DNA of 5,587 nt from a virus (lineage: Duplodnaviria; Heunggongvirae; Uroviricota; Caudoviricetes). Below, in pieces: positions 3,727-5,587 of this stretch (positions are counted from its first letter, which is position 1; each line of letters begins with the position of its first letter). Under the pieces are notes generated by a model. That model was not told the DNA's origin. It worked only from the letters and a program-made list of their open reading frames with translations, and searched no databases. The translations under genes and the position numbers were made by a program. The stretch is taken from the IMG/VR virus record IMGVR_UViG_2700989170_000003; one strand, 5' to 3'.

Positions 3727-4059
3727 TGGCTAACCTACGCAAAGAAGCACGCGGCAGAGAATGCCAGGTACGTATTTACGGCGTATGCAATGGCNNNNNN
3801 NNNNNNNNNNNNNNNNNNNNNNNNNNNNNNNNNNNNNNNNNNNNNNNNNNNNNNNNNNNNNNNNNNNNNNNNNNNNNNNNNNNNNNNNNNNNNNNNNNNN
3901 NNNNNNNNNNNNNNNNNTGCATGGGCTTGTAGTGCGTGTCACGATGAAATCGACCGACGCACCCATAATCTCGACAACAAAGACGCCAGACTTTACCACC
4001 TCGAAGGCGTGATCAGAACGCAGGCGATACTGCTGAGGGAGGGGAAGATTAAGTCATGA
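3726..4059 (+). CDS. ybcO: YbcO-like (DUF1364) putative metal-binding nuclease; CDS interrupted by an N-run
   Basis: N-terminal MANLRKEARGRECQVRIYGVCNG and C-terminal ACSACHDEIDRRTH...EGKIKS both resemble DLP12 YbcO. The two parts are in different frames across the 123-N gap. Start overlaps the upstream stop (TAATG); stop overlaps the rusA start. Confidence 0.72.
3795..3917. other. Run of 123 N (assembly gap or masked bases) inside the ybcO-like gene
   Basis: Direct observation: n at every position 3795-3917. Confidence 0.99.
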
Positions 4060-4418: not shown

Positions 4419-4603
4419 ACGCCACAATTCAAACGATACCAGAGCTTCTTATCCAGACACGAGGCAATCAGACCGAAGTGGCAAGGATGCTTTCCTGCGC
4501 AAGAGGAACAGTGCTCAAGTACAACCGAGACAGCAAAGGCGAGCGTCACGTAATAGTTAACGGCGTCCTGATGGTCAAACAGGGCAAGAGGGGAAGACGA
4601 TGA
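4415..4603 (+). CDS. ninH: NinH (small HTH protein)
   Basis: 62-aa product; ...GNQTEVARMLSCARGTVLKYNRD...VIVNGVLMV matches lambda NinH from memory. ATG 4415 overlaps the rusA stop (ATGA), with GGAGA 4 nt upstream. Confidence 0.85.
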   Translation: MNATIQTIPELLIQTRGNQTEVARMLSCARGTVLKYNRDSKGERHVIVNGVLMVKQGKRGRR

Positions 4604-5223
4604 GACTAGAAAGCGTAGCTAAATTTCATTCGCCAAAAAGCCCGATGATGAGCTACTCACCACGGGCTACGGCTTCTGACTCTCTTTCCGGTACTGATGT
4701 GATGGCTGCTATGGGGATGGCGCAATCACAAGCCGGATTCGGCATGGCTGCATTCTGTGGTAAGCACGAACTCAGCCAGAACGACAAACAAAAGGCTATC
4801 AACTATCTGATGCAATTTGCACACAAAGTATCGGGGAAATACCGTGGTGTGGCAAAGCTCGAAGGAAATACTAAGGCAAAGGTACTGCAAGTGCTCGCAA
4901 CATTCGCTTATGCGGATTATTGCCGTAGTGCCGCGACGCCGGGCGCAAGATGCAGAGATTGCCACGGTACAGGCCGTGCGGTTGATATAGCCAAAACAGA
5001 GCAGTGGGGGAGAGTTGTTGAGAAAGAGTGCGGAAGATGCAAAGGTGTCGGCTATTCAAGAATGCCAGCAAGCGCTGCATATCGCGCTGTAACGATGCTA
5101 ATCCCAAACCTTACCCAACCCACCTGGTCACGCACTGTTAAGCCGCTGTATGACGCTCTGGTGGTGCAATGCCACAAAGAAGAGTCAATCGCAGACAACA
5201 TTTTGAATGCGGTCACACGTTAG
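4600..5223 (+). CDS. Q: Late-gene antiterminator Q (lambda-type)
   Basis: 207-aa product MRLESVAKFHSPKSPMMS...CRDCHGTGRAVD...CGRCKGVGYSR is near-identical to lambda Q as I recall it, including the zinc-finger Cys motifs. ATG 4600 overlaps the ninH stop (ATGA). Confidence 0.95.
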   Translation: MRLESVAKFHSPKSPMMSYSPRATASDSLSGTDVMAAMGMAQSQAGFGMAAFCGKHELSQNDKQKAINYLMQFAHKVSGKYRGVAKLEGNTKAKVLQVLATFAYADYCRSAATPGARCRDCHGTGRAVDIAKTEQWGRVVEKECGRCKGVGYSRMPASAAYRAVTMLIPNLTQPTWSRTVKPLYDALVVQCHKEESIADNILNAVTR

Positions 5224-5265
5224 CAGCATGATTGCCACGGATGGCAACATATTAACGGCATGATA

Positions 5266-5306
5266 TTGACTTTTTGAATAAAGTTGGGTAAATTTGACTC
5301 AACGAT
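5266..5306 (+). promoter_or_regulatory. Late promoter pR' with qut (Q-utilisation) site
   Basis: -35 TTGACT (5266-5271), 17-bp spacer, -10 TAAATT (5289-5294), then the pause-inducing AACGAT element (5301-5306). This matches the lambda pR'/qut arrangement immediately downstream of Q. Confidence 0.78.
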
Positions 5307-5327
5307 GGATAAATGCACTCGTTAAAT

Positions 5328-5365
5328 AAAGCCCTGAGTTAATAGCTCGGGGCTTTTTGCGTTTT
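5328..5365 (+). terminator. Intrinsic terminator about 30-60 nt downstream of the pR' start (tR'-like)
   Basis: 8-bp stem GCCCTGAG (5331-5338) / CTCGGGGC (5346-5353) with one G-U pair, 7-nt loop, then TTTTTGCGTTTT; an AAA tract sits upstream. Confidence 0.55.
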
Positions 5366-5501
5366 AAGCACGACCTTTCTGAAAGCGCATCAAACCAAAT
5401 ACCAGACAGACCAAAATAATCACCTTATCCGCTGTGGCTACGGTGCGGTGTGCTTTGCATAAAAGAAAACCAGCTCAATGGCTGGCTTCGTGAAAGCGGG
5501 T

Positions 5502-5537
5502 GGCAAGAGGTTGCGCTAACAACCTGATGCCGTTTTG
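5502..5537 (+). terminator. Terminator-like hairpin plus GTTTTG, homologous to a lambda hairpin upstream of the lysis genes
   Basis: Arms GGCAAGAGGTTG (5502-5513) and CAACCTGATGCC (5520-5531) give 4 bp, a 2x2 internal mismatch, then 6 bp; loop CGCTAA; followed by GTTTTGCCC. The sequence from about 5484 to the end matches my recollection of lambda just upstream of gene S. Confidence 0.35.
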
Positions 5538-5587
5538 CCCGTGCATATCGGTCACGAACAAATCTGATTACTAAACACAGTAGCCTG

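What the first reader, a model, noticed from the sequence alone, without database searches (positions are those of the whole stretch)
5224..5365. pR'/qut is followed by a terminator only about 30-55 nt downstream
The promoter and qut elements are lambda-like, but the first strong intrinsic terminator (5331-5358 plus U-tract) lies far closer than lambda tR', which ends the 194-nt 6S RNA. Without Q the leader would be only about 55-60 nt. The Q engagement pause at about +16/+17 would sit just ahead of the hairpin. Sequence after the AACGATGG element is not lambda-like, so this is a different leader/terminator module paired with a lambda-type Q.
Basis: partly seen in the sequence, partly recalled or inferred. 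Interest (0 to 1): 0.5.

Follow-up and report, generated by a model that had tools for sequence, protein, structure and literature searches.

The report
P22-type late terminator tR' after pR'
The hairpin right after the phage late promoter is real. It is the well-known short "tR'" terminator of phage P22, HK97 and HK022, already annotated in public records and common in E. coli prophages, so the finding is correct but ordinary.

Summary
A lambda-identical Q gene (4600-5223, 99% to lambda Q) is followed by a lambda-type pR'/qut: -35 at 5266-5271, -10 at 5289-5294, inferred +1 at A5301. A strong intrinsic terminator follows: core stem 5331-5338/5346-5353, extended 5328-5356, U-tract 5354-5358. 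The hairpin folds at -18.7 kcal/mol (z -4.2). It spans +28/+31 to +53/+56, so a Q-less transcript should be about 58-65 nt, against 194 nt in lambda.

This is not a new module. P22 carries the same sequence with one extra loop base. Its RefSeq record marks it "t late or tR'; antiterminated by gene 23 protein" at +31..+59, and a 1990s P22 record calls it "terminator tR'; tQ". Phage Emek annotates a terminator at exactly the window-equivalent 5331-5358.

The module occurs in HK97, HK022, HK544, mEp235 and others. It is in 99 phage records, 334 of 5426 complete E. coli genomes, and 101 of 126 sampled sequences that carry the exact lambda qut core (120 IMG/VR stretches plus reference loci and the window).

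Most likely mechanism: a constitutive pR' transcript ends here unless Q, loaded at the +16/+17 pause, carries RNA polymerase through. Novelty: already known. Interest: low.

The parts
4600..5223 (+). Q antiterminator gene (207 aa), lambda-type
   Evidence: ORF. 99.0% identical to lambda Q (2 substitutions) and 97.1% to P22 gp23.
5266..5294 (+). Late promoter pR' (-35 TTGACT 5266-5271, -10 TAAATT 5289-5294), with the Q-binding element in the spacer
   Evidence: for the hexamers. 75/77 identical to lambda from the Q stop codon to -1. Annotated as PR'/qut in HK544, HK140 and P22.
5294..5306 (+). Sigma-dependent pause element: -35-like TTGACT (5294-5299) and -10-like AACGAT (5301-5306). Inferred transcript start is A5301.
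   Evidence: Identical to lambda at these positions. P22 RefSeq marks the equivalent base as 'similar to phage lambda P late RNA 5' nt'. The role of these elements is taken from PMC9388147 and established lambda work.
5309..5323 (+). Early transcribed region +9..+23, still lambda-homologous; includes the inferred pause site +16/+17 (5316/5317) and the invariant TCGTT (+19..+23)
   Evidence: 11/15 identical to lambda in +9..+23, with no similarity from +24. TCGTT is kept in all four leader families.
5328..5356 (+). tR' terminator hairpin (core stem 5331-5338/5346-5353, GCCCUGAG/CUCGGGGC; loop region 5339-5345; flanking A/U pairs 5328-5330/5354-5356)
   Evidence: The same element is annotated as terminator in P22 and Emek. 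The stem is kept and the loop varies among relatives.
5354..5365 (+). U-tract TTTTT (5354-5358), then GCG and a second T-run (5362-5365); predicted release zone, giving an RNA of about 58-65 nt
   Evidence: Read directly from the sequence. The tract is kept in relatives. Recombinant joints to lambda-type downstream sequence fall inside or just after it.
5366..5485 (+). HK97/P22-type spacer of the late leader, with no lambda counterpart and no conserved ORF
   Evidence: Alignment. 96-99% identical in HK544, HK97 and HK022. P22 is diverged here. The ORFs are not conserved.
5486..5587 (+). Conserved block upstream of the holin gene, shared with lambda; the window ends inside it
   Evidence: the block starts at +186 in 55 of 85 short-type leaders.

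Best explanation
This is the P22/HK97/HK022-type late regulatory cassette of a lambdoid (pro)phage. It consists of the Q gene, the constitutive late promoter pR' with its Q-binding element, a sigma70-dependent pause element at +1..+6, and the intrinsic terminator tR' at +28..+58.

Without Q, RNA polymerase starts at A5301, pauses near +16/+17, and is released at the U-tract after the GCCCUGAG/CUCGGGGC hairpin. That leaves a leader RNA of about 60 nt and keeps the lysis and virion genes silent.

With Q, the protein binds between the -35 and -10 hexamers and loads onto the paused polymerase. By 15-16 nt the nascent RNA has threaded through the Q nozzle. All RNA made afterwards, including both hairpin arms (+28 onward), therefore emerges through a channel too narrow for a duplex. 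The hairpin cannot form at the exit channel and transcription continues into the late operon.

Shown here: the sequence elements, the fold, identity with annotated P22 tR', and wide conservation. Inferred: the start site, the pause site, termination at this hairpin and Q-dependent read-through in this particular phage.
For: - Q is 99% identical to lambda Q and 97% to P22 gp23.
- pR'/qut is 75/77 identical to lambda and +1..+8 is identical.
- The hairpin is the strongest terminator-like site in the window: -18.7 kcal/mol, z -4.2, 0/200 shuffles.
- P22 RefSeq annotates the same sequence (one extra loop base): promoter 'P late or P R'', qut, RNA 5' nt, and 't late or t R'; antiterminated by gene 23 protein action' at +31..+59. 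X78401 says 'terminator tR'; terminator tQ'. Emek annotates a rho-independent terminator at the window-equivalent 5331-5358.
- Among relatives the stem is kept while the loop varies (TTAATAG / TTTAACCG / GATAACAC). One variant carries a compensatory A-U to C-G change plus two one-sided changes. 96.9% of cells are paired, against 20-55% when partners are slid.
- The two G-U pairs make the + strand hairpin stronger than its complement (-18.7 vs -13.5 kcal/mol), which fits rightward function.
- The leader plus hairpin moves as a unit. ZF8-1, VE-F5 and HK620 share it up to the T-tract and then switch to other downstream sequence.
- Literature: lambda and P22 Q proteins substitute for each other (PMC8022706). 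Short antitermination-regulated RNAs are made from the late promoters of 21, phi80, 82 and P22 (PMC7547250). The RNA 5' end is predicted to pass through the Q-lambda torus by 15-16 nt, and the torus blocks hairpin formation (PMC9388147).
Against: - Nothing here measures transcription. The start site, the pause position and termination efficiency are inferred by homology.
- At +16/+17 the window (like P22) has C-A where lambda has C-G, so the exact pause position may differ.
- The U-tract is only five U before GCG, so termination may be incomplete.
- Covariation support is thin because the relatives are nearly identical: 1 compensatory pair, and 27-29 of 500 shuffles reach the observed values.
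- I could not read the primary P22 papers (Roberts et al. [quoted passage not shown] 2003). The claim that a short P22 RNA was actually seen therefore rests on a secondary citation.
Confidence: 0.9

Rival explanations
1. The hairpin is mainly, or additionally, a bidirectional terminator or insulator. It would stop leftward (antisense) transcription from the late region from running into Q and the nin genes, with its role in Q control secondary.
For: The hairpin is flanked symmetrically by an A-tract (AAATAAA, 5324-5330) and a T-tract. On the minus strand the core stem would be followed by TTTATTTA. The minus-strand RNA still folds at -13.5 kcal/mol, z -3.5. A second, leftward-facing terminator-like hairpin lies at 5489..5466 and is kept in P22, so leftward transcription may be an issue here.
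Against: The two G-U pairs become C-A mismatches on the minus strand, which weakens it by 5 kcal/mol. No minus-strand promoter was found downstream in the window. The only minus-strand ORF between the hairpins (19 codons) is broken in P22. The element always travels with pR'/qut, not with the downstream sequence.
Confidence: 0.12
2. The leader RNA of about 60 nt is not just a by-product. It would act in trans as an Hfq-binding small RNA in lysogens, as StxS does in Shiga-toxin phages.
For: pR' is constitutive in lysogens, and its short RNA has a function in Stx phages (PMC7547250). Lambda 6S RNA was recovered with Hfq and had RIL-seq partners (bioRxiv 10.1101/2024.10.31.621285). The window RNA has a terminator hairpin with a U-tail, preceded by an A/U-rich single-stranded stretch. 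The leader is very strongly conserved: 37 + 17 identical 70-mers.
Against: There is no match to any Rfam family (best E = 0.5, far below gathering scores). Conservation is equally explained by the DNA-level pause and terminator functions and by recent common descent. No target or Hfq data exist for this RNA. The U-tail is short.
Confidence: 0.1
3. The hairpin is a chance inverted repeat, and the real Q-controlled terminator lies further downstream (as the HK620 record implies by placing tQ about 650 nt downstream).
For: Terminator-like sites in the window as a whole are not enriched over shuffles (9 found vs 6.1 expected). The HK620 record labels this stretch 'qut' and puts tQ elsewhere.
Against: 0/200 shuffles fold as well. 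The stem is kept across four leader variants with loop changes and one compensatory pair. Three independent records annotate it as the terminator. In the window no other convincing rightward terminator lies before the end of the sequence. HK620 keeps the hairpin and the T5 tract intact.
Confidence: 0.02

Closest known systems
Phage P22 late control region: P late (PR'), qut, t late / tR' (NC_002371 37852-37945; X78401 5525-5626)
   Same: The sequence from the promoter to the end of the U-tract is essentially the same. P22 has one extra base and two substitutions in the loop. The spacing is the same (terminator +31..+59), the Q protein is of the same type (97% identical), and the downstream T-run is the same.
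   Different: The spacer after the terminator (5366-5485) is diverged in P22; window and P22 show no significant match there, and the flanking pre-S block is about 72% identical. There the window matches the HK97/HK022/HK544 version at 96-99%. The surrounding nin genes are a different mosaic.
Phage lambda pR' - 6S RNA - tR'
   Same: Same Q (99%) and same promoter, QBE and pause element. Homologous transcript to +23. Same logic of a constitutive short transcript ended by an intrinsic terminator that Q overrides. Same conserved block upstream of the holin gene.
   Different: The lambda leader is 194 nt with a larger, branched terminator hairpin (-26.9 kcal/mol for the region folded) and contains the start of orf-64. 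The window lacks lambda +24..about +135, and the distance from +1 to the pre-holin block is 186 nt against 429 nt.
StxS / PR' short transcript of Shiga-toxin phages (PMC7547250)
   Same: A short RNA from the constitutive, antitermination-controlled late promoter, ended at tR'.
   Different: The Q family and sequence are different. The StxS primary transcript is 258 nt and is cut by RNase E to 74 nt, with shown Hfq binding and targets. None of this is known for the window RNA.
Late regulatory regions of phages 82 and 21
   Same: Same cassette architecture: Q gene, pR', sigma-dependent pause, nearby terminator (PMC9388147; PMC7547250 refs 51, 53).
   Different: These are unrelated Q protein families with other QBE sequences and pause positions. 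No sequence similarity is expected. I did not compare them directly.

Membership tests
Lambda-type (Q-lambda family) Q-dependent late regulatory cassette | Gene for a Q-lambda family protein immediately upstream of the late promoter | tested here: met
   ORF 4600-5223, 207 aa, 99.0% identical to lambda Q over its full length.
Lambda-type (Q-lambda family) Q-dependent late regulatory cassette | pR' promoter with the Q-binding element between the -35 and -10 hexamers | tested here: met
   75/77 identical to lambda from the Q stop codon to -1. The two differences (A to T, A to G) lie in the spacer and are shared with P22, whose Q is interchangeable with lambda's (PMC8022706).
Lambda-type (Q-lambda family) Q-dependent late regulatory cassette | Sigma70-dependent pause element (-10-like AACGAT at +1..+6, adjacent TTGACT) | tested here: met
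   Bases 5294-5308 are identical to lambda. Pausing itself was not measured.
Lambda-type (Q-lambda family) Q-dependent late regulatory cassette | Intrinsic terminator between the pause site and the late genes | tested here: met
   Hairpin 5328-5356 plus U-tract.
Lambda-type (Q-lambda family) Q-dependent late regulatory cassette | Q- and NusA-dependent read-through of that terminator | not testable with these tools
   Needs in vitro transcription or reporter assays.
P22-type tR' (short-leader) module | Sequence identity with the annotated P22 t late/tR' and the same distance from +1 | tested here: met
   Window 5301-5365 matches P22 37887-37952 apart from one extra base and two substitutions in the loop. 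P22 annotation places the terminator at +31..+59.
P22-type tR' (short-leader) module | A short RNA (about 60 nt) actually made from the late promoter | not testable with these tools
   Only a secondary citation is available: PMC7547250 states that short antitermination-regulated RNAs are made by P22, citing Roberts et al. 1976. The primary papers are not held.
Lambda 6S RNA / lambda tR' | Homology to the 194-nt lambda 6S RNA over its length, including the tR' hairpin | tested here: not met
   Identity stops at +23 (19/23, then 1/17 over +24..+40). MAFFT places the window hairpin under the 3' half of lambda tR', but this is not a significant match.
Curated RNA families (Rfam 15), including known sRNAs and leaders | A covariance-model hit at or above the gathering score | tested here: not met
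   Best hits are NsiR1 at 17.9 bits (gathering 39) and SpF01 at 21.4 bits (gathering 55). All are generic terminator matches.

The most novel reading that the evidence does not exclude
The pR' leader RNA of about 60 nt would be made constitutively from this module in roughly 6% of complete E. coli genomes and in P22-like Salmonella prophages. It could be an Hfq-dependent trans-acting small RNA that changes host or phage gene expression during lysogeny, a functional counterpart of StxS and possibly of lambda 6S RNA. The shortness of the leader would then be a selected feature of the RNA rather than only a compact terminator.
Probability: 0.1. Interest if true: 0.45.

Novelty: already known. Interest (0 to 1): 0.08.

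Why it matters
It matters little as a discovery. The element is the textbook Q-controlled terminator in its P22/HK97 form, and public records already label it.

The survey does add one useful point. Among sequences carrying the exact lambda qut core, the short leader is the common arrangement and lambda's 194-nt 6S leader is the minority. Templates and models built on lambda tR' therefore represent the less frequent design.

The close spacing (hairpin starting 11-14 nt past the pause) is a natural test case for the nozzle model. That model predicts Q must be fully loaded and threaded before +28.

If the short RNA turned out to act in trans, it would be a widespread prophage sRNA.

Tried and rejected
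- Rfam scan of 5100-5587, both strands, at permissive E-values: only sub-threshold generic terminator matches.
- A minus-strand 19-codon hydrophobic ORF (5420..5364, VIILVCLVFGLMRFQKGRA) looked like a small toxin ending just before the hairpin. It is interrupted by a stop codon in P22, so I treat it as chance.
- The plus-strand ORFs in the leader (5357-5419; 5450-5527, annotated as a 51-aa hypothetical protein in HK140) are not conserved in length or frame.
- Covariation analysis on 16 distinct short-leader variants is compatible with the hairpin but statistically weak, because the sequences are nearly identical.
It gave no taxonomic information.
[quoted passage not shown] 2003.
- The BTP1 prophage transcriptome paper was checked for a late-leader RNA. 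BTP1's late operon starts after two tRNA genes, an arrangement also described for phage L, so it is not informative here.
- A tRNA-like stretch in the longer leader of E. coli VE-F5 was not called by ARAGORN.
- I considered that lambda tR' and this hairpin might be homologous, with lambda carrying an insertion. The MAFFT alignment suggests this, but I found no significant pairwise match, so the question stays open.

Full report
**What is in the window.** The window is the right end of the early-right operon and the start of the late operon of a mosaic lambdoid (pro)phage. It carries a toprim/primase-helicase gene, ninB, ninF-like and KilAC-antirepressor genes, a DUF1364-like ORF (partly masked by N), rusA, ninH and Q. 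The Q ORF (4600-5223) encodes a 207-aa protein that is 99.0% identical to lambda Q (two substitutions) and 97.1% identical to P22 gp23. Large parts of the window recur at 97-98% identity in E. coli prophages.

**Checking the observation.**
- The promoter scan finds TTGACT-17-TAAATT at 5266-5294. That scan as a whole is at chance level (5 found, 4.9 expected), so I do not rely on it.
- The evidence is homology. From the Q stop codon to -1 the window is 75/77 identical to lambda pR', and +1..+8 (AACGATGG, 5301-5308) is identical.
- Taking the lambda start point, +1 is A5301. P22 RefSeq marks the equivalent base.
- The inverted repeat 5328-5341/5343-5356 gives a 13-pair hairpin. Its core is GCCCUGAG/CUCGGGGC (5331-5338/5346-5353), followed by UUUUUGCGUUUU.
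- It is the best terminator-like site in the window. It folds at -18.7 kcal/mol with z = -4.2 and 0 of 200 shuffles as stable. The +1..+66 leader folds at -23.3 kcal/mol, z = -4.6.
- The hairpin occupies +28/+31 to +53/+56 and the first U-run +54..+58. The expected Q-less RNA is about 58-65 nt. The lambda-equivalent pause site (+16/+17 = 5316/5317) lies 11-14 nt before the first arm.
Lambda-likeness does not stop at AACGATGG. It continues to +23 (19/23 identical) and ends abruptly at +24.

**What it is.**
- A search of the phage collection with 5224-5480 gives full-length matches at 96-99% identity in HK544, mEp235, HK140, HK97, HK022, mEpX1, Sf101, Salmonella phage Emek and others.
- P22 RefSeq (NC_002371) annotates the promoter 'P late or P R'', the qut site, the RNA 5' nucleotide (37887) and the terminator 37917-37945: 't late or t R'; antiterminated by gene 23 protein action to allow full late transcription'. 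That is +31..+59.
- The P22 sequence there is the window sequence with one extra base and two substitutions in the loop.
- An older P22 record (X78401) labels the same inverted repeat 'terminator tR'; terminator tQ'.
- The element is therefore the known P22-type tR'.

**How common it is.**

| Collection | Short (P22-type) leader | Lambda-type leader |
|---|---|---|
| Phage records | 99 records match the leader/terminator segment 5309-5400 (Salmonella 44, Escherichia 30, Enterobacteria 19, also Klebsiella, Hafnia, Cronobacter, Pantoea) | 30 records, mostly lambda and its derivatives |
| Complete E. coli genomes (5426) | 334 genomes match 5296-5470 | 416 genomes match the lambda-specific +24..+200 |
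| 126 sequences with the exact lambda qut core (120 IMG/VR stretches plus reference loci and the window) | 101 | 22 (3 other) |

The distance from +1 to the conserved pre-holin block is typically 186 nt in the short type and 429 nt in lambda.

**Support for the structure from variation.**
- Among 16 distinct short-leader variants the stem is kept while the loop changes (UUAAUAG, UUUAACCG, UUUAACAG, GAUAACAC).
- One divergent family (AAGCCCCGCGGAUAACACCGUGGGGC) has an A-U to C-G compensatory change, a U-G to C-G change and a G-C to G-U change, and folds at -21.2 kcal/mol.
- Overall, 96.9% of cells pair, against 20-55% when partners are slid.
- With one compensatory pair, and 27-29 of 500 shuffles reaching the observed values, the covariation evidence is only modest.
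- The two G-U pairs make the + strand hairpin 5 kcal/mol more stable than its complement, which fits rightward function.

**The module as a mosaic unit.** E. coli prophages in strains ZF8-1 and VE-F5, and phage HK620, share the leader and hairpin up to the T-tract. They then switch to lambda-like or other downstream leader sequence. Some IMG/VR variants have the joint inside the T-tract (…GGGGCTTTTTTGTATCTGCACA, a lambda-like tail). The pR'-pause-tR' segment therefore travels as one unit. The region after it is a variable insertion site.

**Mechanism.**
- Established for lambda: RNA polymerase starting at pR' pauses at the sigma-dependent pause element. Q bound at the QBE loads onto the paused complex, and with NusA it forms a nozzle on the RNA-exit channel. 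The RNA 5' end is predicted to have threaded through the nozzle when the transcript is 15-16 nt. The nozzle then sterically prevents terminator hairpins (PMC9388147).
- Lambda and P22 Q proteins are interchangeable (PMC8022706).
- Inferred here: because both hairpin arms (+28 onward) are made after loading, a terminator this close is fully compatible with the mechanism.
- Not shown here: the actual start, the pause position (the window and P22 have C-A at +16/+17 where lambda has C-G), termination efficiency (only five U before GCG) and Q dependence.
- A secondary source states that short antitermination-regulated RNAs are produced from the late promoters of 21, phi80, 82 and P22 (PMC7547250). 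The primary papers were not available.

**Rivals.**
- A bidirectional-terminator role is possible, because the A- and T-tracts are symmetric and the minus-strand fold is -13.5 kcal/mol. It is weakened by the G-U asymmetry. No minus-strand promoter or conserved minus-strand gene was found.
- A trans-acting sRNA role is suggested only by analogy with StxS and with Hfq-associated lambda 6S RNA. No Rfam family matches.
- A chance hairpin is excluded by the fold statistics, the conservation and three independent annotations.

**Verdict.** The feature is the already-annotated P22/HK97/HK022-type tR'. Novelty: already known. Interest: low.

Noticed in passing
window 4827-4900 and 4645-4663, minus strand: The antisense paQ/'a23' module inside Q is kept. 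A CII/C1-type site TTGC-N6-TTGC (reverse complement of 4887-4900), a minus-strand promoter-like site at 4855..4827 and a minus-strand terminator-like hairpin at 4663..4645 match the positions of the a23 promoter, C1 site and terminator annotated in P22.
   Followed up: partly
window 3795-3917: A run of 123 N masks the middle of the DUF1364-like ORF between the KilAC antirepressor gene and rusA.
   Followed up: no
window 5502-5531 (plus GTTTTGCC to 5540): A hairpin in the conserved block upstream of the holin gene (GGCAAGAGGTTG/CAACCTGATGCC) is perfect in lambda (GGCAGGAGGT/ACCTCCTGCC, followed by GUUUUGCC). It has two mismatches in the window. P22 carries a compensatory G-to-A / C-to-T pair, and two IMG/VR contigs have the loop inverted. 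It might be the 3' end of a processed late-leader RNA, such as the roughly 63-nt lambda LPR2 reported near 6S RNA, but the coordinates of LPR2 were not available.
   Followed up: partly
window 5466-5489, minus strand: A leftward-facing terminator-like hairpin (GAAGCCAGCC..GCTGGTTTTCTTTTATG) lies between tR' and the holin gene. P22 keeps a hairpin plus T-tract here with a shifted stem (CCCAG/CTGGG) despite heavy divergence of the surrounding leader. Its purpose is unknown.
   Followed up: partly
window 5319-5323 (+19..+23) with 5301-5305 (+1..+5): TCGTT at +19..+23 is invariant in all four leader families paired with the lambda qut (lambda, P22-type and two rarer variants), while +9..+18 varies. 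It is complementary to AACGA at +1..+5, so the leader is predicted to form a small 5' hairpin. It could equally be a DNA-level part of the pause signal.
   Followed up: partly
L128-L150 (genome-contig hits): 21 of 23 representative-genome contigs that contain the lambda qut core are lambda DNA itself. They sit on low-coverage contigs, several about 48.4 kb long, in unrelated taxa (Pseudomonas, Shewanella, Bacillota, Bradyrhizobium, Kitasatospora and others). This is most likely lambda spike-in or reagent contamination of those assemblies.
   Followed up: partly
L007:2570-2660, L006:2570-3060, L152:1290-1400, L005 about 990-1070: In relatives that have lambda-type sequence after tR', a long inverted repeat (lambda CACAACAGGTAAGAGCA…TGCTCTTTCCGTTGTG) brackets a variable insert. 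In E. coli ZF8-1 both arms are changed in a compensatory way to a perfect 16-bp stem (CACAAAAGGAAGAGCG…CGCTCTTCCTTTTGTG). It is possibly one of the RNase III processing sites reported for the lambda late leader. The window lacks this element.
   Followed up: no
window 5364-5420, minus strand: A 19-codon hydrophobic ORF (VIILVCLVFGLMRFQKGRA) ends 8 nt before the hairpin and resembles a small membrane peptide. The frame is interrupted by a stop codon in P22, so it is probably chance.
   Followed up: yes
L152:908-950 and 1539-1565 (phage HK620 record): The HK620 record labels the stretch containing this same hairpin and T5 tract as 'qut' and places the late terminator 'tQ' about 650 nt further downstream. 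HK620 may have two terminators in series, or the proximal one was overlooked in that annotation.
   Followed up: partly
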